Shown here: piece by piece, positions 11,143 to 27,868 of the stretch
Layout of the letters: every line of letters starts with the position of its first letter
Numbering within the stretch: the first letter of the stretch is position 1
Source: Candidatus Omnitrophota bacterium
Lineage (GTDB): Bacteria; Omnitrophota; Gorgyraeia; Ghiorseimicrobiales; Ghiorseimicrobiaceae
Direction: 5' to 3'
NCBI GenBank assembly: GCA_030681595.1
Contig: JAUXSB010000037.1
Coordinates: forward strand, 64,319-128,318
Length of the DNA stretch: 64,000 bases
Position numbers and translations under genes: made by a program
The notes under the pieces: model-generated
What the model saw: the letters and a program-made list of their open reading frames with translations, nothing else
What the model was told of the DNA's origin: nothing
The model's database searches: none

Positions 11143-12019
11143 CCTTAGTTCCCCCTTCTTTTTTATCCATCTGATTTTTTATCGTATTTATTTGTTTCTC
11201 AAGGAGTGTATTCAGCTTATGCTTAGGATGGCGGCTAATAAAATCTTTATATATGTCAACAGCCCGTTGCGGCTGTTTTAGTTTCAAGAAAGATATAATC
11301 CCAATCATTTTAAGGCCGTTGATTACGCTGGGCGTATTGGGGTAGTTATTAACCATTACCTGAAGCGCCTCCAGGGCTGCGTTCCAGTTTCCCATAAGCT
11401 CAAGGCAGGTTATCCGAGAGTTCATCGCTATGTACCCTAACTGGGTATTTGGATACTCTCCCGCTATCTTTTGATAATATTCTATAGCTTTTGAGAAATA
11501 GCTATTTTTATTGGTATCGTCTTTTTTCTGCGCGTAGCGGTTAGCGATATAAATAGGCATATTCATCGCCAGCGGAGTACCGATATAGTTATTCATTATG
11601 TTTTCATAAGTGGAAAGCGCTTGATTCCATTTATCTTCGCTCTCGTAAGAATTGCCGATTGCAAATAGTGCTTGCGCGCAATAATTTTTATCTTCAGGGT
11701 ATTGGTTTAATATTTTATTAAATTCCAGCCTTGCCGCATCAAATTCTTTTCTGGAAATATAAAACCTGCCCAAGAGAAGCCGGGCTCCTTTTGCGCTTAT
11801 TGTTTTTGGGTATTTCGAAATTATGTATTTATATTGTTTTGCGGTTTTTTCATATAGGGCCGACGGAACAGATTCCTGGTTCTTTAATATGTTAGATAGC
11901 GTTTTATTCGCAAAAAATAATTTTCGTTCAGCGAGGTATTCGCCTCTATAGTCAAGGAAAGAAAATATTAAAGCGCAGATAAACAATATTAATATTGAAT
12001 AAGTTATTCTTTTTGGCAT
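11105..12019 (-). CDS. TPR-repeat protein with an N-terminal membrane anchor.
   Basis: Repeated 'A...Y..G..Y....W..A' TPR-like units. N-terminus is hydrophobic. Confidence 0.6.
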   Translation of the reverse strand: MPKRITYSILILFICALIFSFLDYRGEYLAERKLFFANKTLSNILKNQESVPSALYEKTAKQYKYIISKYPKTISAKGARLLLGRFYISRKEFDAARLEFNKILNQYPEDKNYCAQALFAIGNSYESEDKWNQALSTYENIMNNYIGTPLAMNMPIYIANRYAQKKDDTNKNSYFSKAIEYYQKIAGEYPNTQLGYIAMNSRITCLELMGNWNAALEALQVMVNNYPNTPSVINGLKMIGIISFLKLKQPQRAVDIYKDFISRHPKHKLNTLLEKQINTIKNQMDKKEGGTKGVSKSAQPQEQK

Positions 12020-12876
12020 TTTTGCAGGTAATATAATGTGATTAAAGAGATCACGTATCCATTTATAAAGAGAGACAGGATTACCCCTAAGATAATCATC
12101 AGCGGGACGATCTCAGGGCAGATTTTATCCATTAGCGCGGAAGCATTATTGTTCAGATAGATTAAAGGCAGGGCTGAAAGCGACGGTACTAAAACAAATA
12201 AAAAAGTAGCAATAAAATTATTTTTTAGCGCCTTAAAATTATCCTTCAGCGCCGCAAGTATTTTTTTGTTTTTAATGATGATTAGCGGTATGCAATAGGC
12301 AAAAGCCGTATCGGTCAATATGCCTAATATAAAATTGACGTAGTTTGAGGAATGGATTAGCCATTTTTTTAGCGCTATGACAATATGGTTGGCAGCATAT
12401 ATCTGGCTGGAAATTATACTCTTAAGGGTGAAATCGTAACCTTTACGCAAGGTTAGCAGGCATACCGTAATAATCAAGGCAATGCAGAAAATATCTATAT
12501 ATTTTTTTGAGTTTTTGCGAAAAGCGGTTTTTAAATGCGGGGTTTTATCCGAGTTGGTATCATATACTAACGAACAGGTTACCGCGATCAGGAACCCTCC
12601 TATTCCTATATAGATGAGCACCTGCGCGTAGTAAATAAGCCTATACATCAGGATAAAATTAGCCGGGTAGTGTAAAAATTGCTCGCCCCATAAGGTGCGC
12701 ACAATAGGCGCAAAGAGAATGTTTAGCGGCCAGCGCGGTAAAAAATAGATTATTTCCAGGGCTATAAGTTCTAAAAAAGCGGTAATCGCCAATGGGAATA
12801 AGGCAACAGGATGTTTTTTGAGTAATTGAAAAGCGGTATACAAAAGGTGGATTACGATGTTTCGATTTTTCGGCAT
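12004..12876 (-). CDS. Polytopic membrane protein of unknown function.
   Basis: Multiple hydrophobic helices, no recognisable motif. Confidence 0.5.
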   Translation of the reverse strand: MPKNRNIVIHLLYTAFQLLKKHPVALFPLAITAFLELIALEIIYFLPRWPLNILFAPIVRTLWGEQFLHYPANFILMYRLIYYAQVLIYIGIGGFLIAVTCSLVYDTNSDKTPHLKTAFRKNSKKYIDIFCIALIITVCLLTLRKGYDFTLKSIISSQIYAANHIVIALKKWLIHSSNYVNFILGILTDTAFAYCIPLIIIKNKKILAALKDNFKALKNNFIATFLFVLVPSLSALPLIYLNNNASALMDKICPEIVPLMIILGVILSLFINGYVISLITLYYLQKCQKE

Positions 12877-12958: not shown

Positions 12959-15661
12959 TTAAAAAGATTTATTTTCTTTGAGTTGAGCGACTTTTTTTCG
13001 CAGGTTACCGGCGATTATTTCGTAGCTCTCTTCTTTTTCCTTTGGGGTTCCCTCTTGAATTAGTTCACCAATTGTGATCATGGGCCCATATTTAATCTTA
13101 ATCCGGCTTAGTTTAGGGAAAGCGCGATAACGCGGCCAGGCGCGGAAGCTGCCTTCAATATAAGCGGGGATAACCGGTATATCCAGTTCTTTGATTAAGA
13201 TACCCACTCCTTTTTTAAAGTCCTTGATTTCGCCGTCAATAGAGCGCTGCCCCTCGGGAAAGTAGCAGACGATTTTTGAATTTCTTAAAACAAAAGCGCA
13301 GGCTTGTAATGCCTCAATTAAATTCAGGCTTAATTCCAGTGGAATAAGCCGGGCGGTTTTTATGAAGCCTCTCAGTAGAAAATGTTCAAAGATAGCGCTA
13401 TAGCCGACAAAGTATGTATTTATCGCGGTCTTAAAAGGCAGCGAGCTTAAAACAACCAACCCGTCAAAATAACTGGTGTGGTTAGGGCAAATTAAATAAG
13501 GGCCTTTTTCTTTTAAGTTTTGCCTGCCTTCTACGCGTAGTAAAAATAACACGCGAAAGATTAGTTTGAACATGCCGATAACCATCAGGCTGAAGAGTAT
13601 GTTAAAAATACCCGGTTTTAAATTTATTTTACTTAATGTGCCTGGAGAAGGATTTTCCCGGATTATTTTTTCCCAGATAAAGGCTTTTTCTTTTTTAGCT
13701 TGCGTTTCGGTATTTACTAAAATATTTTTTAGCTTCAGAAGTAGGTCTTTTACGGTAAGGCTCATGAAAAAACCCGTTGCTTCTTCGTCTGAAATTTCCA
13801 GGTTCAGGGCGCTCTGTAAGTTGAGCAGTAATTCAATCCTGCCTAGCGAATCTAGCCCTAAATCCAATTCTAAATGGTCATTGATGCCTACTTCCTTATC
13901 TAGGGTTTGTTTAAGTAAAGATAGGGCATTTCGCGAAGTTTCGGAATTGAGTATATCTAAGTCGTCTTCTTTAAGGGACTCTTCTTTGGGCTGGTACGAT
14001 TTTGATAATTCAGCGTAGATTTCCGGGATTTTATGGCGCATTATTTTTCCTAAGCGTGTACGCGGGAGAAGCTCTTTAGTGATGACAAGGCCGGTGATGC
14101 GCTTATAAGCCGGTAATTTTACCGAAAGGTTATCTAATTCCCATTTTAATTTGTCGCGGATATTGGTTTCATTTTTTGCTTTGAAGATTTCTTCGTCTAT
14201 TACGATAACCGCGCAGAGGCGCTCAATCCCTTTTAGATAATCAGCGTCTTTAACCGGCAAAACACAGATTTCTTTGATAAATTGGGTTTGGGTATAATGT
14301 TTTTCTATTTCTTCGGGGTTGATATTTTTACCGTTGCTTAAGACAATAATCTCTTTTTTTCTGCCCCTTAGGTAAAGATAGCCTTCATTATCTATATATC
14401 CCAAGTCGCCGCTAGCGAACCAGTCGTCTTTGATTGTTTCTTTAGTCTGCCGCGGAAGATTGTAATAGCCCGCCATTACATTATCGCCCTTTATTAATAC
14501 CTCTCCTATTCCTTCTTTGTTCGGCTCAACTATTTTTATTTCTACATCCGGGATGGCTTTGCCTACGGAGCCTATCTTGGGTTTTTCCGGGGGGTTAAAG
14601 GTTGCCGCCGGAGAAGTTTCGGTTAAGCCGTAACCTTCCAGTATAGTAAAGCCCCACTTAAAAAAATCTCTGGCTACTTCGCTATCGAGCGGCGCGCCTC
14701 CGGAAATCATAAAACGCAGAGTTTCGCCAAATGCCTTGTGTATCCGGGAAAAAATATATTTATTGAAATTGACGCCGCAAGCCATGCGAAAGGCGTAAGA
14801 AGTATCGCGCAAGAGCCCAATTACGGTTTGCTTGACGAATGGAAGATTTTTTATTTTTTCCTTTATTGAGTGGTGTATCAGGGAATATATCTGCGGCACT
14901 CCTACAAGAATCGTTGCTTTTGTTTCTTTGATACAGCTAAGCAGTTCCGCTGAAGAAAGCCCGGTAGGATAGCTTATAGTCGCGCCTGACAATAAGGGCA
15001 GTAGTAACGTAACCGTAAAGGGGTAAGTATGATGCAGCGGCAATATAGAGATAATAATATCTTCTTTGCGGATAATGTGTAATTGTTCTATGGAGTTTAC
15101 GTTGGAGATTAGGTTGCGCTGCGTAAGCATTACGGCCTTAGGCAGGTTGGTAGTACCTGAAGTATAAACTAAAACTGCCAGTTGAGTTTTATTTTGCCTG
15201 TTTTCAAAATTATCTTCTGGTTTGGAGTTTTCAAGTTCTTTATGGAATTGCTCCGAATCTATCAGGATTACCTTTAGGTCTTGCAGGCCGTTTTTCAAAT
15301 TAGAGTAAATTTTTTCCGTAGTGATAAGGATCTGGCATTCGGAGTGAAAAATGAATAGTTGTATCTCATGGGGAGGCAGCTGAATGTCCAGCGGGACAGA
15401 AACCGCGTTAGCATACATTATCGCGAAAAAAGCGATTGGGTATTCCGGGCGGTTATCCAGAAGGACGGCAATAGTATCGTCGGGTTTAATTTCCCTGTTT
15501 TTAAGCAGATTACCGAATTTTACTGATTTTTGATATATTTGATCATAGGTTAAACTGAGGTACGCATCATTTTTTTTAAAGATGGCGGCTGTTTTTTGCG
15601 GGTTAGTTTTGGCGGTTTCGGAAAAAACTTCAAAAATGTGGCTGTTATTAGTCTGAGGCAT
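12959..15661 (-). CDS. Tri-domain fusion: fatty-acyl AMP ligase / acyl-CoA synthetase + acyl-carrier (phosphopantetheine-attachment) domain + PlsC-type lysophospholipid O-acyltransferase.
   Basis: AMP-binding 'LVYTSGTTNLPKAVMLT' and 'GYGLTET'. Carrier-domain serine 'LGLDSLGRIEL'. PlsC motifs 'NHTSYFDG' and 'FPEGQRS'. Confidence 0.85.
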   Translation of the reverse strand: MPQTNNSHIFEVFSETAKTNPQKTAAIFKKNDAYLSLTYDQIYQKSVKFGNLLKNREIKPDDTIAVLLDNRPEYPIAFFAIMYANAVSVPLDIQLPPHEIQLFIFHSECQILITTEKIYSNLKNGLQDLKVILIDSEQFHKELENSKPEDNFENRQNKTQLAVLVYTSGTTNLPKAVMLTQRNLISNVNSIEQLHIIRKEDIIISILPLHHTYPFTVTLLLPLLSGATISYPTGLSSAELLSCIKETKATILVGVPQIYSLIHHSIKEKIKNLPFVKQTVIGLLRDTSYAFRMACGVNFNKYIFSRIHKAFGETLRFMISGGAPLDSEVARDFFKWGFTILEGYGLTETSPAATFNPPEKPKIGSVGKAIPDVEIKIVEPNKEGIGEVLIKGDNVMAGYYNLPRQTKETIKDDWFASGDLGYIDNEGYLYLRGRKKEIIVLSNGKNINPEEIEKHYTQTQFIKEICVLPVKDADYLKGIERLCAVIVIDEEIFKAKNETNIRDKLKWELDNLSVKLPAYKRITGLVITKELLPRTRLGKIMRHKIPEIYAELSKSYQPKEESLKEDDLDILNSETSRNALSLLKQTLDKEVGINDHLELDLGLDSLGRIELLLNLQSALNLEISDEEATGFFMSLTVKDLLLKLKNILVNTETQAKKEKAFIWEKIIRENPSPGTLSKINLKPGIFNILFSLMVIGMFKLIFRVLFLLRVEGRQNLKEKGPYLICPNHTSYFDGLVVLSSLPFKTAINTYFVGYSAIFEHFLLRGFIKTARLIPLELSLNLIEALQACAFVLRNSKIVCYFPEGQRSIDGEIKDFKKGVGILIKELDIPVIPAYIEGSFRAWPRYRAFPKLSRIKIKYGPMITIGELIQEGTPKEKEESYEIIAGNLRKKVAQLKENKSF

Positions 15662-15684
15662 ATTTTATCTGTAGCGTTTATATT

Positions 15685-16416
15685 TTAAGTGGCAGGCTTA
15701 AAGGTGAAATCGTGATAGGTTTCTTGTTTGTTACCGTCGCTAAAATAATCAAAAAATTTAGGGAAGCGGGTTTGTACTTCTTGTTCTATTTTTTTTATGT
15801 CGCCTAAATACGGCTTTACCGGGCCGTAGACGTCTATTTCTTCGCCTATTACGTCAAAAGTAAGGCCGTGAATACGCAATAACAGCCAGAGGCTCTTTTC
15901 CATCAGGGCATACCAGTGGGTAATTCCCCTCTTTTTGCTTTCACGGTAGAGTTCTCTGTAGAGCCCGAATGCCATAGGTTTAGCGCGGCGCAGGAAGGCG
16001 TTCCCTTCGCTGTCTGTGCCTTTTTTGTCTTCTGCCTGCGGGCCGTAGTATATACCGTCGTCCCAGCGCCTGCGTAGTTTCTTGCTTATGACAAGGCGGG
16101 AAATTTCAGCGAGGCTGTCCCGGGGAACCCCCTTTTTGGCTATTGTTAGATCTTTACAATGTTTTTCAAGCGGAAGCACTATCGAGTCGGCTAGGATCAT
16201 CCGTATTGTTCCGATGATTTCGCCGTCGGGGTCTATAGCGGCAAAGTGGATCGCGTTGTTGTCGTATTCATCGCTTTCAGTGCTTTTAGGGTAGTCTTCT
16301 TCTTTTATAAAGCCGCACTCTTTGCAATATACCTCAAAGCGCAGGCGGTGTATTTGCTCCATTAGTTGAGCCTCTTGCGGCTCAACTTTTTTAAAGATAA
16401 AGGTTTGCATAATCAT
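15685..16416 (-). CDS. GNAT-fold N-acyl amino acid synthase, PEP-CTERM/exosortase-associated family (TIGR03694-like).
   Basis: 'LRFEVYCKECGFI...DEYDNNAIHFAAID...GTIRMIL' and C-terminal 'ITHWYALMEKSLWLLL'. A paralog is at 21968-22651. Confidence 0.65.
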   Translation of the reverse strand: MIMQTFIFKKVEPQEAQLMEQIHRLRFEVYCKECGFIKEEDYPKSTESDEYDNNAIHFAAIDPDGEIIGTIRMILADSIVLPLEKHCKDLTIAKKGVPRDSLAEISRLVISKKLRRRWDDGIYYGPQAEDKKGTDSEGNAFLRRAKPMAFGLYRELYRESKKRGITHWYALMEKSLWLLLRIHGLTFDVIGEEIDVYGPVKPYLGDIKKIEQEVQTRFPKFFDYFSDGNKQETYHDFTFKPAT

Positions 16417-16505
16417 TAAAATTATGTTAACATAATTTTAACTTATTGTCAACTATGAAGATAAAGAGGGTAGTATACTCAATTGTGTGTAAATTAGCTT
16501 TTAAA

Positions 16506-16541
16506 CACCCCCGAGGTGGCCGAATGGACTCCTCGGGGGTG
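16506..16541. repeat. 11-bp inverted repeat CACCCCCGAGG/CCTCGGGGGTG whose loop contains the ATG of the LolA-like gene, followed by a second hairpin CGCCCGA/TCGGGCG.
   Basis: Read directly. This is a GC-rich island in AT-rich DNA. Confidence 0.65.
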
Positions 16542-17318
16542 GCCCGCCCGAACGACCACTGGTCGGGCGCGGCGAAGCTCGGTTTAATCCTTTTGTTTCT
16601 TCTGCCTGCCCTTGCTTTTTCCCAAGCCTCTTTATCCCCAACCGAGATTGTCAGGCGCGCGGACGACCTTCTGCGTGGTGACACTAATCGCGGCACCTAC
16701 ACCATGGAAGTAGTTACCCCTAATTGGCGCCGCACTTTAGAGCTCTATGTCTATAGTTTAGGCAGGGATAAGATTTTTATCCGTATCCTTTCCCCTGCTA
16801 AAGAAGCAGGCATTGGCACACTGCGCGTAAAAAACGAGATGTGGAATTACCTGCCGAATGTGGAAAAAACCATTAAAATCCCCCCTTCTATGATGGCGCA
16901 GAGCTGGATGGGCAGCGACTTTGCCAATGATGATTTAGTCAAAGAATCAAGCATTGTTAACGACTATACGCATACTATTGCTGCTGAAGAAGATACCGGA
17001 GATTTTTCCGCTTATAAAATAGAGCTTATTCCTAAGCCCGATGCGGCGGTAGTCTGGGGAAAAATTCTTTTCTGGGTGCGAAAAGGCGATTATGTGCCGT
17101 TAAAGGAAGAATATTATGATGAAAAAGGCAGGCTTATAAAAGTATTAGAATATTCGGATATCGGAGCGGTTTCCGATCATATCATCCCCCGCGTTTGGAA
17201 GATGTCTTCGGCGTTAAAGGATAACCACTATACTATTATTAAAGTTGTTGATGTAGAATATAATAAGCCGATAGATGGTAATGTGTTTACGTTGGAGAAT
17301 TTGAAGAAAATACAGTAA
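16524..17318 (+). CDS. LolA-like outer-membrane lipoprotein-sorting-family protein (secreted).
   Basis: Signal peptide 'KLGLILLFLLPALAFSQA'. Body reads 'TLELYVYSLGRDKIFIRILSPAKEAGIGTLRVKNEMWNYLP'. It sits directly upstream of a FtsX-permease/ABC-ATPase pair. The start was chosen at an internal Met (the track ORF begins at 16446). Confidence 0.6.
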   Translation: MDSSGVARPNDHWSGAAKLGLILLFLLPALAFSQASLSPTEIVRRADDLLRGDTNRGTYTMEVVTPNWRRTLELYVYSLGRDKIFIRILSPAKEAGIGTLRVKNEMWNYLPNVEKTIKIPPSMMAQSWMGSDFANDDLVKESSIVNDYTHTIAAEEDTGDFSAYKIELIPKPDAAVVWGKILFWVRKGDYVPLKEEYYDEKGRLIKVLEYSDIGAVSDHIIPRVWKMSSALKDNHYTIIKVVDVEYNKPIDGNVFTLENLKKIQ

Positions 17319-17353
17319 ATCTGTGTAATCTGTTTTTAAAAATTAGTGTAATC

Positions 17354-18577
17354 ATGATATTTGCTTTTCTAAAAATAGCTTTCCGCAATATCTTACGCGC
17401 TAAGCGCAGATCGCTGATTACGGTATCAGCTGTCGGCTTCGGCTTGGGTGCGTTAATTTTTATCTGGGCGTTTGTCGACGGCGCGCACCGTCAGATGGTT
17501 GAGAATTATACTTCTTTAATCGCCGGCCATATCCAGATTCACAAGCAGGGTTTTAGTCAAAAGGAGCAATTGGAGATGAATTTTTCTCGCCCTGAAGAAA
17601 TTATCGCTAAACTGACGCGATTGGCGCAAGTAAAAGCGGTAAGCCCACGTATTAAGGCATTTGGCTTAGTTAGTTCCGCGGAACATTCTTCTATCGTTTC
17701 GATTATGGGGATTGTGCCGCAAAAAGAATTGTCCGTAAGCCGCATGAGCGATAGGGTTAAAGAGGGAAAATTTTTAGAGGACAATAAAAGCATTGTTATC
17801 GGGGAGCGTCTCGCCAAAAACCTGAATGTTTCGTTAGGCGATAAGGTTGTTATTATGTCGCAGGCGCTGGACGGTAGTATTGCCTCGGCAGCCTATCATG
17901 TTAACGGCCTCTTGGATACCGGCGCCGATGAGATTGATAAAGGGGTAGCTCTCATTACTTACACGGCAGCGCAAGAGTTGTTTGTTATGGATAACAAAGC
18001 GTCTGAAATAGCCGTGCGTATTAATTCAGCCGAAGACGCCAGGATTGTATCAAGAATGATCGCGAATGATTTAAATTCGCCGGATTTGGAGGTATTGGCT
18101 TGGCAGGACATCTCCCCCATGCTCTATCAGTGGGTAGAGTTTGATAACGGTTTTATCTGGATTATCGTTTTGGTGGTGATGATTGTGGTGGCTATCGGTA
18201 TATTAAATACGGTGCTTATGGGGGTATTAGAGCGCACGCATGAATTCGGCATACTGCTTGCTTTAGGCACAAAACGCAGGCAGGTTATTTCGATGGTGGC
18301 TTTTGAATCTCTTATTTTGGGCATAGTCGGCAGTATCGCCGGTTTAGGGCTGGGGTGCGTTTCTTCTCTTTATTACGGTAAAGCGGGAATAAATCTCTCT
18401 GCCTTTACCCAAGCCCTGAATAATTTTTATATGGATGCTTTTATTTATCCCAGGCTTTCTTTCGGCCATGTGGCTACTTCTTTGGTTTTAGTATTAATAA
18501 TCAGCGTTGTTGTTTCGCTCTATCCGGCGTATCACGCGGCGAATTTAAAGCCTGTTGACGCCATAAGGAGCATATAG
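17354..18577 (+). CDS. ABC transporter permease, FtsX/MacB/LolE-like.
   Basis: N-terminal TM helix, a large periplasmic domain, and a C-terminal 3-TM FtsX module 'LNTVLMGVLERTHEFGILLALGTKRRQV'. Confidence 0.8.
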   Translation: MIFAFLKIAFRNILRAKRRSLITVSAVGFGLGALIFIWAFVDGAHRQMVENYTSLIAGHIQIHKQGFSQKEQLEMNFSRPEEIIAKLTRLAQVKAVSPRIKAFGLVSSAEHSSIVSIMGIVPQKELSVSRMSDRVKEGKFLEDNKSIVIGERLAKNLNVSLGDKVVIMSQALDGSIASAAYHVNGLLDTGADEIDKGVALITYTAAQELFVMDNKASEIAVRINSAEDARIVSRMIANDLNSPDLEVLAWQDISPMLYQWVEFDNGFIWIIVLVVMIVVAIGILNTVLMGVLERTHEFGILLALGTKRRQVISMVAFESLILGIVGSIAGLGLGCVSSLYYGKAGINLSAFTQALNNFYMDAFIYPRLSFGHVATSLVLVLIISVVVSLYPAYHAANLKPVDAIRSI

Positions 18578-18596
18578 TAATGTTAATGACCAATGA

Positions 18597-18660
18597 CCAA
18601 TTAAAATTGGTAATTGAATAATTGGAAATTTATTGGGATTTGGTTAATTGGCAATTGGGA
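18597..18660. repeat. Intergenic tract rich in CCAATT/AATTGG repeats, including the palindrome ACCAATTAAAATTGGT.
   Basis: Read directly between the permease and ATPase genes. Confidence 0.5.
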
Positions 18661-18682
18661 ATTATATAATAAAATATAAGTT

Positions 18683-19354
18683 ATGCTAATCAAAACAATC
18701 AATCTAACTAAAACCTACACTATCGACGGCGACATCCAGACCCCTGCTTTGCGAGGAGTTGATATCGTAATAGATAAAGGTGAGTTTGTGGCGATTGCCG
18801 GCCCTTCCGGCTCCGGCAAGACCTCCCTCTTAAATCTTCTTGGCGCCTTAGATACCCCTACTTCCGGCTCTATTTTTTACGAAGATATCGATATCACTAA
18901 GATAGCTTTAAACGCGCTTTCCGGTTTTCGGCTAACACAAATCGGGTTTGTATTTCAGGCGTATAATCTTATAAACACGCTGACGGCGTTAGAAAACGTG
19001 GAATACATTATGCTGCTTAAGGGCGTTAGCGCGGATATCCGCAGGAAAAAAGCCGTGGATATTTTGGCCCGTGTCGGCTTAGGCGATTATATTAACCGTT
19101 TTCCGCGCCATATGAGCGGCGGCCAGCAGCAACGGGTGGCAGTCGCGCGTTCAATCGCGGCAGAACCAAAGGTAGTTTTGGCGGATGAGCCGACGGCAAA
19201 TCTTGATTCCAAAACCGCTGAATCCTTAATTGAGCTGATGAAAGAGCTAAATGCCGAAAAAGGCATTACTTTTATTTTCTCCACCCACGATAAAATGGTA
19301 ATGGATAAGGCAAAGCGCCTGATTAATCTTCATGACGGAAAGGTTGTAAGTTGA
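18683..19354 (+). CDS. ABC transporter ATP-binding protein (LolD/MacB-type).
   Basis: Walker A 'GPSGSGKTS', signature 'LSGGQQQRVAVARS', Walker B 'VVLADEPT'. Confidence 0.9.
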   Translation: MLIKTINLTKTYTIDGDIQTPALRGVDIVIDKGEFVAIAGPSGSGKTSLLNLLGALDTPTSGSIFYEDIDITKIALNALSGFRLTQIGFVFQAYNLINTLTALENVEYIMLLKGVSADIRRKKAVDILARVGLGDYINRFPRHMSGGQQQRVAVARSIAAEPKVVLADEPTANLDSKTAESLIELMKELNAEKGITFIFSTHDKMVMDKAKRLINLHDGKVVS

Positions 19355-20490
19355 AAAGAATTTTATTCGCGGTGATTTTTCTTCTCTTCCCTGCTTTATC
19401 TTTTTCTCAAACCGAAAGCAGCCTTGATATCAGCGGTTACTATAAAAACATCCTTATCCTCACCAAATCGCTTTATAGTAAGGAAGATATTTTTGCCGAC
19501 ACCAGCCGACTGCGCCTTGAGTTTAAAAAAGAAATCAAACCTTGGCAATTTTATCTCACCATAGATAACGAAGCAATTGCCAATGATTTTTCCAATACAT
19601 CGGATTTTAAATTCATCCGTTCAAAGCAGCAGGATAATTTGACAGCGATAGATTTAGATAAAGTTTCTGTTGATAACGAACATCTTTATTTAAAACATTC
19701 CGTTTACCGCGCCTACCTCAAATATTACAGCCCTAAGTTTCAGGCGGTAATCGGCAAACAGTCTATTGATTGGGGAAGGATGCGGTTTTATAGCCCGGTG
19801 GATTTGTTTAATTCGCTTGCTGCTACTGAACTTGAACCGGATGAGCGCGTAGGCATAGATGCCTTAAACCTAAATTTTTCTTCGTCAGACTTTTCCGGGC
19901 TGAATGTAGTTTTAGCTCCGGCGAAAAATTCAGGCGAAGCGAGCTTTGGCGCGAAGCTGTCCCGTAAAATCTCAACTTACGACTGCGCGTTTATGTTCGC
20001 CGATATCCGTAAAAACAAAGTATTAGGGTTTTTATTTGACGGATATATCAAAGAAGCGGGTTTCCGCGGCGAGTTTACTTATACCTTGCAAGATGATAAA
20101 CGGAATTTCCCGCGTGTTTCCCTCGGCATTGATTACAATTTTTTCGGCAGGCTCTATTTGCTGATTGAGCAGTTTTTCAACGGTGGCGCGGATGATAACG
20201 ATACAACCGCCCTCTCTTCTTCTTATGGGGAATCACGCAAGATACTTTCTTTAAAAAAGCATTTATCCGGCATAAATATTAATTATGAGTTAACGCCGTT
20301 GGTAAAGTTGGATAGTTTCACTGTTTATGACTGGGAAGGAAAAAGTGTTTTCGTAAGCCCTCAAATTCGCTATAATATCTGCCAGGACTTTGACTTATCT
20401 ATAGGCGTCCAATTGTTCTTTGGGCGGACAAATTCCGAATTTGGTGATTATAACCACCTCTACTTTTTTGAAGCGAAGAAATACTTTTAG
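19351..20490 (+). CDS. Secreted protein, probable outer-membrane beta-barrel.
   Basis: Signal peptide 'AVIFLLFPALSFSQ'. Alternating amphipathic strands. Ends in '...EAKKYF' with an aromatic C-terminus. Start overlaps the ATPase stop (translational coupling). Confidence 0.5.
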   Translation: MKRILFAVIFLLFPALSFSQTESSLDISGYYKNILILTKSLYSKEDIFADTSRLRLEFKKEIKPWQFYLTIDNEAIANDFSNTSDFKFIRSKQQDNLTAIDLDKVSVDNEHLYLKHSVYRAYLKYYSPKFQAVIGKQSIDWGRMRFYSPVDLFNSLAATELEPDERVGIDALNLNFSSSDFSGLNVVLAPAKNSGEASFGAKLSRKISTYDCAFMFADIRKNKVLGFLFDGYIKEAGFRGEFTYTLQDDKRNFPRVSLGIDYNFFGRLYLLIEQFFNGGADDNDTTALSSSYGESRKILSLKKHLSGININYELTPLVKLDSFTVYDWEGKSVFVSPQIRYNICQDFDLSIGVQLFFGRTNSEFGDYNHLYFFEAKKYF

Positions 20491-20507
20491 CATTATCTTG
20501 CAAAGCT

Positions 20508-21878
20508 ATGGAAAAAAAATATTCTATTCTCGCGAAACAAACCGAACAGTTCAAGAAATACTTTAGAACCATTAACCCGGATAAGCTAAAGGCCCAATCC
20601 GAGTATAAAGCGGTTATGGCGTTTAGAGCCGCTGTCAAAAACTCCCCTGCTTATGCCGACTTTATCAAAAAATCAACCGGCATTGATCCTCGCCGCGTAA
20701 ATAAGATACAGCATTTTAAAGAATTTGTGCCGATATTAGATAAGGATAAAGTTTTCGGCGCCTATTCCGGAAAAATTGAAAGCTGGTGCAAAGGCACTAA
20801 TTTAGATAATGTCGGAGAAATCGTTTCCAGTTCCGGGCATTCCGGAAAATTTTCTTTCGGCATAAACAGCCGCAGCAGCCAAAAATATTCCCGCCAGTTA
20901 ACCGATATAATGCTGGATTATACCTTTGGTATTTCCCGCAAGAAGACGTTACTTATTAATACGCTGGCGATGGGGATTAGGATTTCATCTGATTATGTAA
21001 CTGTTGCCGATACCGGCCCGCGAACTGATACAGTTATCGCTTTACTTAAGGAGTTTGCGCCTAAGTTCGAGCAGGTTATTGTTGCCGCGGATAATAATTT
21101 TATCAAAAATACTTTAGAAGAAGCCAGGGAATCACATGTTGATACAAAAGACGTGAAAATTCATTTGATATTGGGTGAAGAAATCCTGGCGGAAAATCTG
21201 CGCAGTTATCTCGCTAGCCTCTTATACGAGGATTTGGATAACCCTGATGGCGCGTTTATCGGTTCTTCGTTTGGCATTGCCGAGCTGGGATTAAATCTTT
21301 TATTTGAAACAAGGCAGTCTATCCGCCTGCGCCGCGTGACGCAGAAGGATAATCAGTTTAGCGCTCCGCCTGCAATATTTCAGTATCTTCCTACGCGGGC
21401 ATACCTTGAAGAATATGAGTCTAAGGAGAGCGGAACAGAATTATTGATGACCAACTTAGACGATAGCGCCTTATTGCCTTTGGTGCGCTATAATACAAAA
21501 GAAAACGCGAAGCTTATCGCGTCCCCCAAAGGAGAGCTGCCGCTTAACCTGCCGTTTATTACGGTTTACGGGCGGGATAAGCTTATCGCTAAGGATGGTT
21601 TGGTTATAAGGCCTGAGTTAATTAAGGAAGCGCTCTTTTTGAATTGCGATGTCGCCTCTTCTGTTACGGGCTATTTTAGGATTAGCCAGACCGACGGCGT
21701 TTTAAACATAGATGTTCAGCTTAAAAAAGGAAAAGATAATCTCTCTCAAATAAGGGATAACATACAAAGTTCTTTCTCTTATTTTCTGAAATTCCCCCAC
21801 ATAGTCAATGTGCACCCCTACTATTCTTTCCCCTTTGGTTTAGAATTGGACTACGAGAGGAAATTCCGTTATATTTAA
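20508..21878 (+). CDS. Adenylate-forming enzyme, PaaK/F390-synthetase/LuxE acyl-protein-synthetase-like.
   Basis: 'VSSSGHSGKFSFG' resembles the SSGTTG phosphate-binding loop of this superfamily. 456 aa. Confidence 0.45.
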   Translation: MEKKYSILAKQTEQFKKYFRTINPDKLKAQSEYKAVMAFRAAVKNSPAYADFIKKSTGIDPRRVNKIQHFKEFVPILDKDKVFGAYSGKIESWCKGTNLDNVGEIVSSSGHSGKFSFGINSRSSQKYSRQLTDIMLDYTFGISRKKTLLINTLAMGIRISSDYVTVADTGPRTDTVIALLKEFAPKFEQVIVAADNNFIKNTLEEARESHVDTKDVKIHLILGEEILAENLRSYLASLLYEDLDNPDGAFIGSSFGIAELGLNLLFETRQSIRLRRVTQKDNQFSAPPAIFQYLPTRAYLEEYESKESGTELLMTNLDDSALLPLVRYNTKENAKLIASPKGELPLNLPFITVYGRDKLIAKDGLVIRPELIKEALFLNCDVASSVTGYFRISQTDGVLNIDVQLKKGKDNLSQIRDNIQSSFSYFLKFPHIVNVHPYYSFPFGLELDYERKFRYI

Positions 21879-21915
21879 TCGTTTCTCCCGCGCAAAATTA
21901 TGGTTAAAAATAAAA

Positions 21916-21940
21916 ATGCGGAAGAATTTTCCTTCCGCAT
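21916..21940. terminator. Bidirectional intrinsic terminator between convergent genes.
   Basis: ATGCGGAAG-7 nt-CTTCCGCAT, flanked by A-rich and T-rich runs on either side. Confidence 0.55.
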
Positions 21941-21967
21941 TAGTTTAACCTATCGTTTGATTTTTTG

Positions 21968-22651
21968 TTATGCTGTTGCCGGTTCCAATAGTTTCTGAAA
22001 GATATTTTGCGAATTAATTTTTAGGCCGCGCAGACTTTTTTCTATCTCTCTAAGCACGCTTAAATACGGCACTACTCTGCCGTAATATTCAATCGGCTCG
22101 CCTAAGGCATTGAAGACAAACCCGTGTGTATCAACTAAATTATATAAAGAATCTTCCATGGCGGCGCACCAGTGGGTAATATTCCGGCGTTTGCTTTCTT
22201 GATAGGCTACGCCATATAGGCCGAATAATATAGGGCTTATGGTGCACTTAGATTCTTTTATTGCGCCTTTGGTTTTTCCAATGATAACATGATAAGGGTC
22301 GTTCCACTGGCCGATACGGTATTCTTTTCTAATTACGAGGCGGGATATTTCAGCGATATTCTCACGGTTAGCCTCTTTATATTTAGCAAAAAGCGGGTAA
22401 TGGCAGTATTTTTCCATCGGGAAGCCGTATTCAGAGTCTAACACCAGCCTTACTGCTCCCGCTAAAACACCTTTTTTATCTATAGCGGCGATATGTATAG
22501 AGTAATCATCGAACTTGTCGCTTTCTTTGTTATCCTGGCAGTCTTCGCAAGAGATAAAATCATTTTCTTTTACATAAATCTGAAAGCGCAGGCGATAAAT
22601 TTCTTCCTGCAATTCTCGGGAACTAACTAATTTAAAGGTAAAATTAAGCAT
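21968..22651 (-). CDS. GNAT-fold N-acyl amino acid synthase, PEP-CTERM/exosortase-associated family (paralog of 15685-16416).
   Basis: 'LRFQIYVKENDFI...DDYSIHIAAID...GAVRLVL' and 'ITHWCAAMEDSLYNLV' align with the other paralog. Confidence 0.65.
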   Translation of the reverse strand: MLNFTFKLVSSRELQEEIYRLRFQIYVKENDFISCEDCQDNKESDKFDDYSIHIAAIDKKGVLAGAVRLVLDSEYGFPMEKYCHYPLFAKYKEANRENIAEISRLVIRKEYRIGQWNDPYHVIIGKTKGAIKESKCTISPILFGLYGVAYQESKRRNITHWCAAMEDSLYNLVDTHGFVFNALGEPIEYYGRVVPYLSVLREIEKSLRGLKINSQNIFQKLLEPATA

Positions 22652-22742: not shown

Positions 22743-23645
22743 TTATATTTTTTTCTTCTTTCTAAAAAAGCCTAATCCCGCTAAGCCGCTTAGAAAAAGT
22801 GCTGTTGTTGCGGGTTCGGGTATTACGTTATCTCCCGGAGTAAATGTTCCGGAGAGGAAAACTTCTTCAAAGCCATTATCAATTTCGTCAAATCTTAGGT
22901 CAACAACGAATAAATAGTTTGAACTGTCATATGGCGCAAGGTCCATAGTAGGGGCGAATACCGCGTAATCAAGCCGGGCATTGCCGCTTCTATTATTATC
23001 GATCGTATAGGTTGCGCTTGAATCACCGGTTAAAATAAGCTCATTTGGTACTGTTGCCCAAGCACTGGGGTCAAATATACCGTCATTGACATTATCTAAA
23101 GACCATGATGCTACGACGGCGTTGCTGTTATTGGTATCGAGGATTCTTACTTGGCCGACAACGTTTAGAAACTCGCCTGCGCTGTTTGGCTCGTGAGAGT
23201 CAAAATTAAATACCGGAGTAGTAACTCCCGGGCCAAACTGTGCTTCAAGATAGTCAAGGACTTTATCCACACCTACCGGGCCGTTGGCTTGAATACCGTT
23301 TCCCCATATCCCAGAGAAAGTACTGGTACCGGCTCCCGGCGCATCAATCGCGCTTTCAAAGGTGAATGCGCCTGCTCCTACACCTACATTTGCGCTCCCC
23401 GGTCCATTATAAATAATTACATCAAGCCCTCCTGTTCCGGCGTTTACATCCCAATCCGAAGCAGGTAAACCAAATTCCAGCATCAGCGAAGCCGGAAATG
23501 TATAGAATTCATCAATTTGGCTTGCGTATTGTATGCCGTCAAATGTAGAGGTAGGATCAGGTAGTGTTACAACAGCCGATGCCCTTGCGGTAAGACAAAA
23601 GCTAAAAATTAGTATCGCCATTGCCGCTAATATCTTTTTTGTCAT
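22743..23645 (-). CDS. PEP-CTERM sorting-domain protein (exosortase substrate).
   Basis: N-terminal signal peptide. C-terminus is 'PEPATTALFLSGLAGLGFFRKKKKI', i.e. PEP + TM + basic tail. Confidence 0.85.
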   Translation of the reverse strand: MTKKILAAMAILIFSFCLTARASAVVTLPDPTSTFDGIQYASQIDEFYTFPASLMLEFGLPASDWDVNAGTGGLDVIIYNGPGSANVGVGAGAFTFESAIDAPGAGTSTFSGIWGNGIQANGPVGVDKVLDYLEAQFGPGVTTPVFNFDSHEPNSAGEFLNVVGQVRILDTNNSNAVVASWSLDNVNDGIFDPSAWATVPNELILTGDSSATYTIDNNRSGNARLDYAVFAPTMDLAPYDSSNYLFVVDLRFDEIDNGFEEVFLSGTFTPGDNVIPEPATTALFLSGLAGLGFFRKKKKI

Positions 23646-27852: not shown

Positions 27853-27868
27853 AATAGAGTTCTCCTTC

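What the first reader, a model, noticed from the sequence alone, without database searches (positions are those of the whole stretch)
12959..22651. Aminolipid-like biosynthesis and export module next to the PEP-CTERM genes
Two paralogous PEP-CTERM/exosortase-associated N-acyl amino acid synthases (15685-16416 and 21968-22651) bracket four further genes. One is a single 900-aa protein joining a fatty-acyl-AMP ligase, a carrier domain and a PlsC-type O-acyltransferase. The others are a LolA-like protein with an FtsX/ABC exporter, an outer-membrane beta-barrel candidate and a LuxE/PaaK-like adenylating enzyme.

The pairing of an N-acyltransferase with a PlsC-family O-acyltransferase mirrors the two-step OlsB/OlsA (ornithine lipid) and GlsB/GlsA (glycine lipid) logic. 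Here, however, the acyl-activation and carrier functions are fused in cis, and a dedicated Lol-like exporter is attached. Its position directly upstream of three PEP-CTERM substrates and the exosortase suggests a lipoamino-acid product linked to exosortase function, possibly as an anchor or acyl donor.
Basis: partly seen in the sequence, partly recalled or inferred. Interest (0 to 1): 0.8.

Follow-up and report, generated by a model that had tools for sequence, protein, structure and literature searches.

The report
Exosortase-linked N-acyl amino acid lipid module
Next to the exosortase and its three PEP-CTERM substrates, this Omnitrophota genome carries a conserved gene set that most likely makes fatty-acylated amino acids and ships a greasy product to the outer membrane; the link between such synthases and exosortase was already known, but several conserved partner genes found here were not.

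Summary
Minor corrections: five genes, not four, lie between the two synthases; the 900-aa protein lies outside them; its activating domain resembles acyl-CoA synthetases more than FAALs.

The window is a Candidatus Omnitrophota MAG carrying a large PEP-CTERM/exosortase EPS locus. Both N-acyl amino acid synthases (NAS) pass TIGR03694 and keep all family-invariant residues. The 900-aa A-PCP-PlsC protein keeps all three catalytic centres.

The cassette is syntenic: in the window and all five relatives looked up, the order is NAS, fusion, 7-TM protein, TPR, GAF kinase, sigma-54 regulator.

New points:
- Two genomes encode one NAS-A-PCP protein without PlsC, so the A-PCP half probably feeds NAS and PlsC is an add-on.
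- The PlsC domain resembles Aas far more than OlsA.
- The 456-aa protein belongs to an uncurated PaaK-fold family (236 species). It sits within 1 kb of a NAS in 36 of 57 loci and is once fused to one.
- A LolA-like/type VII ABC exporter recurs with the pair in Proteobacteria.

The NAS-exosortase link was published in 2011. The OlsB/OlsA analogy is weak, and the anchor idea remains open and untested.

The parts
8457..9842 (-). Sigma-54-dependent response regulator. It is PrsR-like but below the family cutoff, and is the last gene of the NAS1 operon.
   Evidence: TIGR02915 scores 413.9 bits against a cutoff of 502.6. It is conserved after the GAF kinase in all five cassettes looked up.
9829..11142 (-). 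Cytoplasmic GAF-domain histidine kinase.
   Evidence: Pfam hits GAF, HisKA and HATPase_c. No hydrophobic segment was found. It is syntenic in relatives.
11105..12019 (-). TPR protein with an N-terminal signal or anchor segment, a PrsT-like position in the locus.
   Evidence: TPR Pfam families hit. A hydrophobic N-terminus was found. It is syntenic in relatives.
12004..12876 (-). Polytopic inner-membrane protein with 6-7 TM segments and no family assignment. It is a candidate flippase or partner.
   Evidence: Hydropathy analysis. Only a weak BPSS1780-like hit at 25.8 bits against a cutoff of 90. Detected in 13 related loci.
12959..15661 (-). 900-aa tri-domain enzyme: an acyl-activating (ANL) domain, a phosphopantetheine carrier and a membrane-anchored PlsC-type acyltransferase.
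   Evidence: Pfam domains. At least 97% conservation across 103 homologues of YTSGTT166-171, K175, GYGLTE343-348, K539, D604-S605-L606, N727-H728..D733 and FPEG801-804; a TM segment lies at 683-711. More than 120 homologues share the architecture.
15685..16416 (-). NAS1, a PEP-CTERM/exosortase-associated N-acyl amino acid synthase and the first gene of the operon.
   Evidence: TIGR03694 scores 181.4 bits against a cutoff of 111.95. Invariant residues R26, E47, D49, R72, E104, S106 and R107 are present. It is always adjacent to the fusion.
16416..16441 (.). Perfect 26-bp palindrome TTAAAATTATGTTAACATAATTTTAA in the divergent promoter region. It overlaps a sigma-70-like -10 element for NAS1 and may be an operator.
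   Evidence: It is not conserved in 14 related intergenic regions.
16524..17318 (+). Periplasmic LolA-like (TP_0789-like) carrier protein with a signal peptide.
   Evidence: PF17131 E=6e-58. PDB hits 9tp6 (E 5e-25) and 3buu NE2245 (E 5e-19). Signal peptide seen.
17354..18577 (+). Type VII ABC permease (MacB/LolC-like) with 4 TM segments and a large periplasmic domain.
   Evidence: MacB_PCD+FtsX. LolCE TIGR02212 scores 170 bits against a cutoff of 362. TM pattern.
18683..19354 (+). ABC ATPase, LolD/MacB-like.
   Evidence: ABC_tran. LolD TIGR02211 scores 216.6 bits against a cutoff of 307.75.
19351..20490 (+). Outer-membrane beta-barrel, porin/AlgE/Occ-like. The family is essentially confined to Omnitrophota-type cassettes.
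   Evidence: No Pfam or NCBIfam hit. 67 homologues found. AF2 pLDDT 88. Foldseek hits at E about 1e-10 to OccD2, MOMP and AlgE.
20508..21878 (+). PaaK-fold adenylate-forming enzyme from an uncurated family. It is the most widely conserved NAS partner.
   Evidence: The family profile hits PaaK at E 6e-13. AF2 and Foldseek results. No curated family matches any of 43 members. Found in 236 species. 748 clusters at E<=1e-30.
21968..22651 (-). NAS2, the second N-acyl amino acid synthase paralogue. It is convergent with the PaaK-like gene and lies downstream of the PEP-CTERM genes.
   Evidence: TIGR03694 scores 152.5 bits. Invariant residues are present. It represents a separate conserved paralogue lineage.
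22743..23645 (-). PEP-CTERM protein 1.
   Evidence: PF07589 and TIGR02595 hits. C-terminus ...VIPEPATTALFLSGLAGLGFFRKKKKI.
23923..24855 (-). PEP-CTERM protein 2, PepA-like.
24905..25192 (-). Small Gly/Ser-rich PEP-CTERM protein 3 with a lipobox-like signal (LSGC).
26411..27028 (-). EpsI, the exosortase-associated protein.
   Evidence: TIGR02914 scores 106.5 bits against a cutoff of 42.8.
27043..27948 (-). Exosortase. It is a general family member that reaches no named subtype.
   Evidence: TIGR02602 scores 160.7 bits against a cutoff of 105.55. XrtA scores 164.9 (below 208) and XrtD 169.7 (below 400).

Best explanation
This is the Omnitrophota version of the exosortase-associated N-acyl amino acid module, extended with its own acyl-supply and envelope-export machinery.

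Proposed mechanism:
1. The A domain of the 900-aa protein adenylates a fatty acid and loads it on its own phosphopantetheine arm at Ser605.
2. NAS1 is encoded 23 nt upstream and is fused to the A-PCP unit in some relatives. It takes the acyl group from that carrier and N-acylates an amino acid.
3. The membrane-anchored PlsC domain is present only in a subclade. It uses the same acyl-carrier to O-acylate a second acceptor, either a lysolipid (Aas-like) or a hydroxyl on the N-acyl amino acid.
4. The PaaK-fold enzyme partners the second synthase, NAS2. Most likely it activates the carboxylic acid that NAS2 transfers. Alternatively it activates the carboxylate of the N-acyl amino acid for a further ligation.
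5. The lipidic product reaches the outer leaflet of the inner membrane; the 7-TM protein is a candidate for this step. It is extracted by the MacB/LolC-type ABC transporter, carried by the LolA-like protein and received by the dedicated outer-membrane barrel.
6. The whole unit is co-regulated with the PEP-CTERM/EPS genes through the co-transcribed TPR, GAF-kinase and sigma-54 regulator.

Shown here: gene content, catalytic-motif integrity, protein folds, synteny and domain fusions.

Inferred: substrates, the order of steps, transport direction, and the role in exosortase-dependent matrix assembly.
For: - Family membership and intact residues of both NAS.
- All three catalytic centres of the fusion are at least 97% conserved in 103 homologues.
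- Synteny: NAS, fusion, 7-TM protein, TPR, GAF-HK and sigma-54 RR occur in that order in the window and all five relatives looked up, at 44-59% identity. The full cassette with exporter occurs in about 17-20 loci.
- Rosetta-stone fusions: NAS+A+PCP occurs as a single ORF in L050 and L023. The two are 47% identical across the whole length, including the junction. NAS+PaaK-like occurs as P0365.
- PaaK-like enzyme: PaaK fold with the ATP-binding motifs retained. A NAS lies within 1 kb in 36 of 57 GTDB loci with flanks. A NAS or a PEP-CTERM gene is nearby in 48 of 57.
- Exporter: a LolA-like + FtsX + ABC set recurs beside the NAS/PaaK-like pair in Betaproteobacteria and another Pseudomonadota MAG at only 26-29% identity and in a different gene order (L055, L061, L070). 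In L023, L040 and L073 the PaaK-like gene heads the exporter operon.
- Topology fits the model. The synthases and ligases lack signal peptides. LolA-like, TPR and barrel proteins have them. The permease has the type VII 4-TM layout.
- Literature: TIGR03694-type NAS genes are linked to exosortase loci (Craig 2011, as cited in PMC7293339). Knocking out such a NAS in Methylomonas LW13 abolishes the polysaccharide band (PMC11072679). A similar LolA-like + type VII ABC + OM barrel set in Borrelia was predicted to move a non-polar ligand from IM to OM (PMC13078400).
Against: - There is no chemical or genetic evidence for this organism, which is an uncultured MAG. The amino acid, the acyl chain and the acceptor of the PlsC domain are all unknown.
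- The PaaK-like gene also occurs in Planctomycetota and Verrucomicrobiota loci with no detectable NAS. There it sits next to an amidohydrolase-like gene and PEP-CTERM genes (L018, L060, L065). Its substrate therefore need not be NAS-related.
- Many NAS/PaaK-like loci lack any LolA-like exporter: it was found in 14 of 57.
- Some Omnitrophota cassettes lack the barrel or the exporter within 9 kb (L087, L089).
- In L001 no exosortase lies within 10 kb.
- The single NAS-PaaK fusion (P0365) could be a gene-calling or read-through artefact.
- Type VII ABC/LolA systems classically move lipoproteins, so the cargo could be a protein rather than a small lipid.
Confidence: 0.6

Rival explanations
1. Anchor or acceptor model. 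The NAS-derived lipid, possibly after PaaK-like ligation to an amine-bearing head group, is the nucleophile to which exosortase transfers cleaved PEP-CTERM proteins. The Lol-like ABC, LolA-like carrier and barrel then carry the C-terminally lipidated proteins, not a free lipid, to the outer membrane or surface.
For: - NAS2 sits directly after the three PEP-CTERM genes, and the exosortase is 4.4 kb away.
- PEP-CTERM genes lie within 3 kb of the PaaK-like gene in 28 of 57 loci, including loci without NAS.
- Type VII ABC plus LolA-type carriers are known for moving lipid-anchored proteins (family knowledge; PMC13078400).
- The nucleophile used by exosortase is explicitly unknown (Haft 2006).
- From my own knowledge, the related archaeosortase and rhombosortase systems attach lipid moieties to protein C-termini.
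Against: - No evidence exists for any covalent product.
- An N-acyl amino acid has no free amine unless the amino acid is dibasic or a further ligation occurs.
- Most exosortase systems lack this module, so it cannot be the general acceptor.
- In L001 no exosortase lies within 10 kb of the cassette.
Confidence: 0.15
2. Signal model. The NAS enzymes have the LuxI fold and make long-chain acyl-amide autoinducer-like signals. These are exported by the ABC/LolA-like system and sensed through the co-transcribed cytoplasmic GAF kinase and sigma-54 regulator to switch on PEP-CTERM/EPS genes.
For: - The best PDB sequence matches of NAS1 are acyl-HSL synthases (6wn0, E 1e-4), and the LuxI-type invariant residues are kept.
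- NAS1 is co-operonic with a GAF-HK and a sigma-54 RR in the window and all five relatives looked up.
- A perfect 26-bp palindrome overlaps the NAS1 promoter, positioned like a lux box.
- Sigma-54 control of PEP-CTERM genes is established in Proteobacteria.
Against: - TPR, kinase and sigma-54 regulators accompany PEP-CTERM loci whether or not a NAS is present.
- Two synthases, two activating enzymes, a PlsC domain and a three-part envelope exporter with an OM barrel are heavy machinery for a signal.
- The palindrome is not conserved in relatives.
- Only one sigma-54-like site was found in the window, which is not above chance.
Confidence: 0.12
3. NAS1 N-acylates an amino acid with a 3-hydroxy fatty acid and the PlsC domain esterifies that hydroxyl, giving an acyloxyacyl aminolipid that is the module's product.
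For: - An N-acyltransferase of the PF13444 clan and a PlsC-family O-acyltransferase sit in one operon, 23 nt apart.
- HX4D and FPEG motifs are intact.
- An exporter suited to a two-tailed lipid is present.
Against: - PlsC is missing from the orthologous protein in L023, L040 and L050, and no separate PlsC gene lies within 10 kb.
- The PlsC domain scores 18.7 bits on OlsA (cutoff 300) against 94.7 bits on an Aas-type model.
- The proteobacterial NAS/PaaK-like loci have no PlsC partner at all.
- No hydroxylase or 3-hydroxyacyl source is encoded.
Confidence: 0.2
4. Aas-like repair model for the fusion. The 900-aa protein is a rearranged Aas with a built-in carrier. It re-acylates lysophospholipids generated when the module or the exosortase pathway consumes phospholipid acyl chains, and it does not feed NAS.
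For: The best curated equivalog hits for both halves are Aas-type models. The whole protein scores 269 bits on PRK08633 and the PlsC domain alone scores 94.7 bits.
Against: - All scores are far below the cutoff of 1221.
- The domain order is reversed and a cis carrier domain is present.
- The gene is never found away from a NAS gene in the window or the five look-ups.
- The A-PCP part is fused to NAS in two genomes, with PlsC absent.
Confidence: 0.12

Closest known systems
PEP-CTERM/exosortase-associated N-acyl amino acid synthases (TIGR03694; Craig, Cherry & Brady 2011, J Bacteriol 193:5707)
   Same: Both window NAS proteins pass the family threshold and sit in an exosortase/PEP-CTERM/EPS locus. 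This is exactly the published association.
   Different: The published link, as far as the citing papers describe it, concerns the synthase gene alone. I could not read the original paper. Here the synthases come as two conserved paralogues with a dedicated A-PCP(-PlsC) enzyme, a PaaK-fold ligase and a Lol-like exporter.
FeeM/FeeL (N-acyltyrosine synthase with its dedicated acyl carrier protein; Van Wagoner & Clardy 2006)
   Same: Both pair a FeeM-fold synthase (PF21926 hit) with a dedicated carrier protein that presents the acyl donor.
   Different: Here the carrier is fused to its own loading enzyme. Depending on lineage it is also fused to a PlsC domain or to the synthase itself. FeeM was not retrieved by sequence from the PDB.
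OlsB/OlsA (ornithine lipid) and GlsB/GlsA (glycine lipid) pathways
   Same: Both combine an N-acyltransferase of the Acetyltransf_5 clan with a PlsC-family O-acyltransferase in one operon.
   Different: The PlsC domain is not OlsA-like (18.7 bits against a cutoff of 300). It is dispensable in related cassettes. The NAS proteins belong to TIGR03694, and no OlsB-type family appeared in the scan.
Aas (acyl-ACP synthetase/2-acyl-GPE acyltransferase) and, from my own knowledge, ElbD of Myxococcus (ligase-ACP-reductase-AGPAT)
   Same: One polypeptide joins fatty-acid activation to a PlsC-type acyl transfer. Aas models are the best curated hits for both halves.
   Different: The domain order is reversed relative to Aas and a cis carrier domain is present. 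Scores are far below the Aas cutoffs. There is no reductase, unlike ElbD. The gene is always linked to NAS genes.
LolCDE-LolA-LolB lipoprotein pathway, and the predicted Borrelia BBJ23-29 export cluster (PMC13078400)
   Same: Both have a type VII ABC permease and ATPase, a LolA-fold periplasmic carrier and an outer-membrane component. [quoted passage not shown]
   Different: The LolCE and LolD equivalog cutoffs are not reached. The carrier belongs to the TP_0789-like family PF17131, not canonical LolA. The OM partner is a porin/AlgE-like barrel rather than LolB or an Omp85 protein.
PaaK family adenylate-forming enzymes (PaaK1, BT_0428, NatL2, AjiA1)
   Same: The 456-aa protein shares the fold (TM about 0.7). 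It retains the P-loop-like SSG motif, the Y-x-T-x-D motif, the GR hinge and a C-terminal Lys.
   Different: Identity is only 14-18%. TIGR02155 scores 18.6 bits against a cutoff of 646. The P-loop is SSGxSGxFSFG rather than SSGTTGKP. The family has no Pfam or NCBIfam model and has a distinctive NAS/PEP-CTERM gene neighbourhood.

Membership tests
TIGR03694 PEP-CTERM/exosortase system-associated acyltransferase (NAS) | Score above the curated NCBIfam cutoff of 111.95 bits. | tested here: met
   NAS1 scores 181.4 bits and NAS2 scores 152.5 bits.
TIGR03694 PEP-CTERM/exosortase system-associated acyltransferase (NAS) | Family-invariant (LuxI-like) residues are present. | tested here: met
   R26, E47, D49, R72, P82, E104, S106, R107 and G198 are invariant in 78 of 78 sequences, and D52 in 77 of 78. 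All are present in both paralogues.
TIGR03694 PEP-CTERM/exosortase system-associated acyltransferase (NAS) | Encoded in a genome or locus with exosortase and PEP-CTERM proteins. | tested here: met
   An exosortase, EpsI and three PEP-CTERM ORFs lie within 6 kb.
TIGR03694 PEP-CTERM/exosortase system-associated acyltransferase (NAS) | [quoted passage not shown] | not testable with these tools
   This needs heterologous expression and LC-MS.
OlsB/OlsA-type acyloxyacyl aminolipid pathway | The O-acyltransferase belongs to the OlsA family. | tested here: not met
   NF052553 lyso-ornithine lipid O-acyltransferase scores 18.7 bits against a cutoff of 300 for the isolated PlsC domain.
OlsB/OlsA-type acyloxyacyl aminolipid pathway | The O-acyltransferase is an obligatory partner of the N-acyltransferase. 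| tested here: not met
   The PlsC domain is absent in L023, L040 and L050 and in all proteobacterial NAS/PaaK-like loci.
OlsB/OlsA-type acyloxyacyl aminolipid pathway | A 3-hydroxyacyl group is amide-linked and then esterified. | not testable with these tools
   This needs lipid analysis.
Aas (acyl-[ACP]--phospholipid O-acyltransferase / acyl-ACP synthetase) | Score above the equivalog cutoffs, with PlsC N-terminal to the AMP-binding domain. | tested here: not met
   PRK08633 scores 269 of 1221, PRK06814 scores 219 of 1349, and PRK08043 (PlsC domain only) scores 52.5 of 886. The domain order is reversed and a cis PP-binding domain is present.
Fatty acyl-AMP ligase (FAAL) | Closer to FAALs than to acyl-CoA synthetases. 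| tested here: not met
   Acyl-CoA synthetases are the best PDB hits (E 4e-45). The FAAL 3pbk scores E 4e-25. CoA independence cannot be judged from sequence.
LolCDE/LolA lipoprotein-release system | LolCE and LolD equivalog cutoffs are reached and the carrier is canonical LolA. | tested here: not met
   TIGR02212 scores 170 of 362 and TIGR02211 scores 216.6 of 307.75. The carrier hits PF17131 LolA_like (196 bits against a cutoff of 30) and not canonical LolA.
LolA_like / TP_0789-like (PF17131) | Pfam gathering threshold is reached and a secretion signal is present. | tested here: met
   196 bits against a cutoff of 30. Signal peptide confirmed. PDB relatives are 9tp6 and 3buu.
PaaK (phenylacetate-CoA ligase) | Equivalog score is reached. 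| tested here: not met
   TIGR02155 scores 18.6 bits against a cutoff of 646. Only the fold and core motifs are shared.
Exosortase (TIGR02602) | Score above the cutoff. | tested here: met
   160.7 bits against a cutoff of 105.55. No named subtype cutoff is reached.

The most novel reading that the evidence does not exclude
The module builds the long-sought acceptor of the exosortase reaction. An N-acyl amino acid-derived lipid, made by the NAS with its A-PCP and PaaK-like enzymes, becomes covalently joined to the new C-terminus of cleaved PEP-CTERM proteins. The dedicated LolA-like/type VII ABC/barrel machine is then a second, C-terminal-anchor 'Lol' pathway that carries these lipidated proteins to the cell surface.
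Probability: 0.12. Interest if true: 0.9.

Novelty: new variant of a known kind. Interest (0 to 1): 0.6.

Why it matters
The chemistry of exosortase sorting is unsolved nearly twenty years after the system was defined. Neither the molecule that receives the cleaved PEP-CTERM protein nor the role of the linked N-acyl amino acid synthases is known.

This locus and its relatives show that the synthases are not lone genes. They belong to a recurrent unit with three features:
- its own acyl-loading enzyme, proved by natural NAS-A-PCP fusions;
- an uncurated PaaK-fold ligase family found in at least 236 species;
- in several phyla, a Lol-like exporter.

That gives concrete, cheap experiments: co-expression with LC-MS, ATP-PPi exchange assays, and knock-outs. 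Knock-outs are feasible in culturable carriers such as Undibacterium pigrum DSM 19792, Thiocapsa roseopersicina DSM 217 or Methylomonas LW13. These would decide whether the product is a surfactant, a signal or a protein anchor. The PaaK-like family also deserves a curated model and a name.

Tried and rejected
- The key prior paper (Craig et al. 2011, PMC3187218) is not held. Its content is taken only from citing papers. I therefore cannot say whether it already noted the PaaK-like or ligase neighbours.
- A sigma-54 promoter scan (TGGCAC-N5-TTGCW, 1 mismatch) found one site at 26137-26152(-), upstream of the sugar transferase gene. This is not above chance (expected 1.3). None was found upstream of the NAS or PEP-CTERM genes.
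- The 26-bp palindrome at the NAS1 promoter was checked in 14 related divergent intergenic regions and is not conserved.
- Sigma-70 promoter and terminator scans gave counts no higher than shuffled sequence. Only individual well-placed sites are mentioned.
- The FAAL assignment was rejected.
- The 7-TM protein showed no similarity to the HisKA_7TM extension of the PaaK-like fusion P0312.
- A literature search for TP0789 plus LolA returned nothing. A search for PEP-CTERM plus phenylacetate-CoA ligase returned no paper containing both.
- The afdb50 fold library was unavailable.
- A neighbour-joining tree did not place the proteobacterial PaaK-adjacent NAS with the Omnitrophota NAS2 lineage. NAS2-to-PaaK-like orthology across phyla is therefore not claimed.
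- Chance clustering was rejected because of the recurrent synteny and the domain fusions.

Full report
**What is there**

The window has about 40% G+C. Its proteins are 100% identical to entries from a Candidatus Omnitrophota MAG on a 300-kb contig. Most of the window from about 8.4 kb onward is a PEP-CTERM/exosortase exopolysaccharide locus.

On the minus strand the locus contains:
- an exosortase (27043-27948; TIGR02602 160.7 bits against a cutoff of 105.55, with no named subtype reached);
- EpsI;
- a priming sugar transferase;
- many glycosyltransferases;
- a Wzx-like flippase and an O-antigen-ligase-like protein;
- deacetylase and GNAT genes.

Three ORFs end in a PEP-CTERM signal: 22743-23645, 23923-24855, and a small Gly/Ser-rich one at 24905-25192 with a lipobox-like LSGC.

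**Checking the observation**

- NAS1 (15685-16416) and NAS2 (21968-22651) pass TIGR03694 at 181.4 and 152.5 bits (cutoff 111.95). Both hit PF13444 and PF21926 FeeM.
- The 900-aa ORF (12959-15661) contains AMP-binding, AMP-binding_C, PP-binding and PlsC acyltransferase domains.
- On the plus strand between the NAS genes lie five genes:
  - a LolA_like/TP_0789-like protein (PF17131, E 6e-58);
  - a MacB_PCD+FtsX permease;
  - an ABC ATPase;
  - a 379-aa protein;
  - a 456-aa protein.
- The 379-aa protein has no family hit. With a 37-sequence alignment, AlphaFold gives pLDDT 88, and Foldseek places it among outer-membrane barrels (OccD2, MOMP, AlgE, chitoporin; E about 1e-10). It has a signal peptide and a C-terminal Phe.
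- The 456-aa protein has no family hit either. A 43-sequence profile finds PaaK structures (E 6e-13). The AlphaFold model (pLDDT 91.9) superposes on PaaK1, BT_0428, NatL2 and AjiA1 (E down to 2.5e-21, TM about 0.7).

Two corrections apply. Five genes, not four, lie between the NAS genes, and the 900-aa protein lies outside them, 23 nt downstream of NAS1. Its adenylation domain is nearer to acyl-CoA synthetases (4fuq, E 4e-45) than to a FAAL (3pbk, E 4e-25).

**Integrity of the enzymes**

In an alignment of 78 NAS sequences from the window and related loci, nine residues are invariant: R26, E47, D49, R72, P82, E104, S106, R107 and G198 (NAS1 numbering). D52 is present in 77 of 78. Both paralogues carry all of them. 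From my own knowledge this matches the conserved set of LuxI-type synthases. The best PDB sequence hits are indeed acyl-HSL synthases.

In 103 full-length homologues of the fusion, the following are at least 97% conserved:
- the ANL motifs YTSGTT166-171/K175, GYGLTE343-348, D419, G433-R434 and K539;
- the phosphopantetheine site D604-S605-L606;
- the PlsC motifs N727-H728..D733 and FPEG801-804.

A single hydrophobic segment (683-711) precedes the PlsC domain. The PaaK-like family keeps an SSGxSG P-loop variant, R327-Y328..D332, G355-R356 and a near-C-terminal Lys452. These align with the ATP-binding motifs of PaaK.

**Operon layout**

On the minus strand, six genes follow each other with overlaps or gaps of 82 nt or less:
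- NAS1;
- the fusion;
- a 6-7-TM protein (12004-12876);
- a TPR protein;
- a cytoplasmic GAF histidine kinase;
- a sigma-54 response regulator (PrsR-like, 413.9 bits, below the 502.6 cutoff).

The exporter genes and the PaaK-like gene run divergently from NAS1. NAS2 follows the PEP-CTERM genes and converges on the PaaK-like gene, with a 12-bp-stem hairpin between them.

**Synteny**

Five homologues of the fusion were looked up, at 44-59% identity: P0024, P0006, P0083, P0039 and P0066. All sit directly after a NAS gene. All are followed by the same 290-aa membrane protein, TPR protein, GAF kinase and sigma-54 regulator. The fusion is therefore not a housekeeping Aas next to unrelated genes. The exporter, barrel and PaaK-like genes are present in most cassettes but not all.

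**Domain fusions that assign partners**

In L040 the orthologue is a 641-aa A-PCP protein with no PlsC domain. In L050 and L023 a single ORF of 915 or 921 aa reads NAS + AMP-binding + PP-binding, again without PlsC. These two proteins are only 47% identical yet align in frame through the junction, so the fusion is real.

This is the strongest evidence here on mechanism. The A-PCP unit works with the NAS, most simply by presenting the acyl donor, as the dedicated ACP FeeL does for FeeM (my own knowledge). The PlsC domain is a lineage-specific addition. Scanned alone, the PlsC domain scores 94.7 bits on an Aas-type acyl-[ACP]--phospholipid O-acyltransferase model, 49 bits on AGPAT, and only 18.7 bits on OlsA, whose cutoff is 300.

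**The PaaK-like family is the widespread partner**

- None of its 43 aligned members reaches any curated NCBIfam or Pfam family.
- A scan of one genome per species found relatives in 236 species. These include Omnitrophota, Planctomycetota, Verrucomicrobiota, Desulfobacterota, Alpha-, Beta- and Gammaproteobacteria, and cultured strains such as Undibacterium pigrum DSM 19792 and Thiocapsa roseopersicina DSM 217.
- An exhaustive profile search found 748 clusters (50% identity) at E<=1e-30 among 1.84 billion representatives.
- Of 57 loci with at least 1 kb on both sides, 36 have a NAS within 1 kb, 44 have a NAS in the locus, and 48 have a NAS or a PEP-CTERM gene nearby.
- One representative (P0365, 740 aa) is a NAS-PaaK-like fusion.
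- Another (P0312) carries a 7-TM N-terminal extension, which suggests the enzyme works at the membrane.
- In some Planctomycetota and Verrucomicrobiota loci there is no NAS. There the gene sits beside an amidohydrolase-like gene and PEP-CTERM genes.

**The exporter recurs independently**

In two betaproteobacterial MAGs and one other Pseudomonadota MAG (L055, L061, L070), the NAS-X-NAS-PaaK-like block is flanked by an ABC ATPase, a LolA-like protein (28-29% identical) and two FtsX permease genes (26-29%). The gene order differs from the window. In L023, L040 and L073 the PaaK-like gene is the first gene of the exporter operon.

The permease has the 4-TM type VII layout with a large periplasmic domain. 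There is no MacA-type adaptor. The logic is therefore Lol-like: extract from the inner membrane and hand to a soluble carrier. All Lol equivalog cutoffs are missed. A comparable predicted system (type VII ABC + LolA-like + OM barrel, for a non-polar ligand) was recently described in Borrelia (PMC13078400).

**Interpretation**

The best-supported reading is a self-contained unit that makes N-acyl amino acid-type lipids and moves a hydrophobic product to the outer membrane. It is co-regulated with, and functionally tied to, the PEP-CTERM/exosortase matrix system.

Shown here: gene content, motif integrity, protein folds, synteny and domain fusions. Inferred: the substrates, the acceptor of the PlsC domain, whether the PaaK-like enzyme supplies a donor to NAS2 or activates the NAS product, the cargo of the exporter, and the physiological role.

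Within Omnitrophota the two NAS paralogues form separate conserved lineages. One is always next to the fusion. The other is next to the PaaK-like gene or next to NAS1. This fits 'one activating enzyme per synthase' but does not prove it.

**Relation to prior knowledge**

The association of these synthases with exosortase loci is published (Craig et al. 2011, quoted) and is built into TIGR03694. A knock-out of such a gene in Methylomonas LW13 abolishes a polysaccharide band. In the Stieleria stieleriacine cluster, four NAS genes sit with a PEP-CTERM gene and transporters.

I found no description of the following in the searchable literature, though the 2011 paper itself could not be read:
- the A-PCP(-PlsC) partner and its fusion to NAS;
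- the uncurated PaaK-fold family as the common partner;
- the recurrent Lol-like exporter.

**Verdict**

This is a real, conserved, multi-gene module and a new variant of a known kind. Interest is moderate to high because it turns the unanswered question 'what do the exosortase-linked synthases do, and what is the exosortase acceptor?' into specific experiments.

Noticed in passing
window 16416-16441: A perfect 26-bp palindrome, TTAAAATTATGTTAACATAATTTTAA, abuts the NAS1 start codon and overlaps a sigma-70-like promoter (TTGACA-17-TAACAT, 16452->16424, minus strand). It is absent from the equivalent region of 14 related loci.
   Followed up: partly
window 24905-25192 (-): A 95-aa Gly/Ser-rich protein carries both a lipoprotein-like signal (LSGC) and a PEP-CTERM tail. 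It would therefore be predicted to be lipid-anchored at the N-terminus and processed by exosortase at the C-terminus.
   Followed up: no
window 26137-26152 (-): This is the only sigma-54-like -24/-12 match in the window (TGGCACGGAAAGTGCT). It lies about 73 nt upstream of the sugar transferase gene 25207-26064. The count is not above chance.
   Followed up: partly
L001 680-1483; L088 2694-3521; L089 5159-6097: A ThiF-family (E1-like) gene recurs beside the cassette in three Omnitrophota loci. A ThiF-family (TcdA-like) gene is also assigned to the stieleriacine pathway in Stieleria (PMC7293339). None was seen in the parts of this window that were scanned against family libraries.
   Followed up: no
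L001 7157-8310: An IS element (HTH_Tnp_1 + rve transposase genes) is inserted between the LolA-like gene and the NAS pair in a 3.36-Mb Omnitrophota contig.
   Followed up: no
L089 6094-7557: In this cassette there is no LolA-like/ABC/379-aa set. Instead a DUF1302 outer-membrane-barrel family gene and a PilZ gene sit directly upstream of NAS, which may be an alternative outer-membrane partner.
   Followed up: no
L018 9038-9967; L060 9064-9996: In Planctomycetota and Verrucomicrobiota loci without NAS, the PaaK-like gene is immediately preceded by a roughly 310-aa amidohydrolase-like gene (N-terminal INAHxH motif) and followed by a PEP-CTERM gene. L001 also has an Amidohydro_2 gene near its PaaK-like gene.
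   Followed up: partly
L087 16258-17334; L088 16454-17440; L089 16878-17915; L001 17929-18972: A PocR+GAF protein follows the sigma-54 regulator in four related cassettes. It is missing at that position in the window, where PilZ-like and DUF4416 genes follow instead.
   Followed up: no
window 29050-32190 (-): A 1046-aa protein with PcRGLX-like (rhamnogalacturonan-lyase-like) domains and a CBM-like N-terminus lies inside the EPS/exosortase operon.
   Followed up: no
window 47971-49686, 50936-52621, 52921-54198 (-): Three paralogous type I phosphodiesterase/nucleotide pyrophosphatase-family genes lie in the EPS locus together with a CDP-alcohol phosphatidyltransferase-like gene (43873-44583). 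This hints at a phospho-substituted polysaccharide.
   Followed up: no
P0312: This PaaK-like family member carries an N-terminal HisKA_7TM-type seven-helix membrane domain, which suggests the family acts at the membrane.
   Followed up: partly
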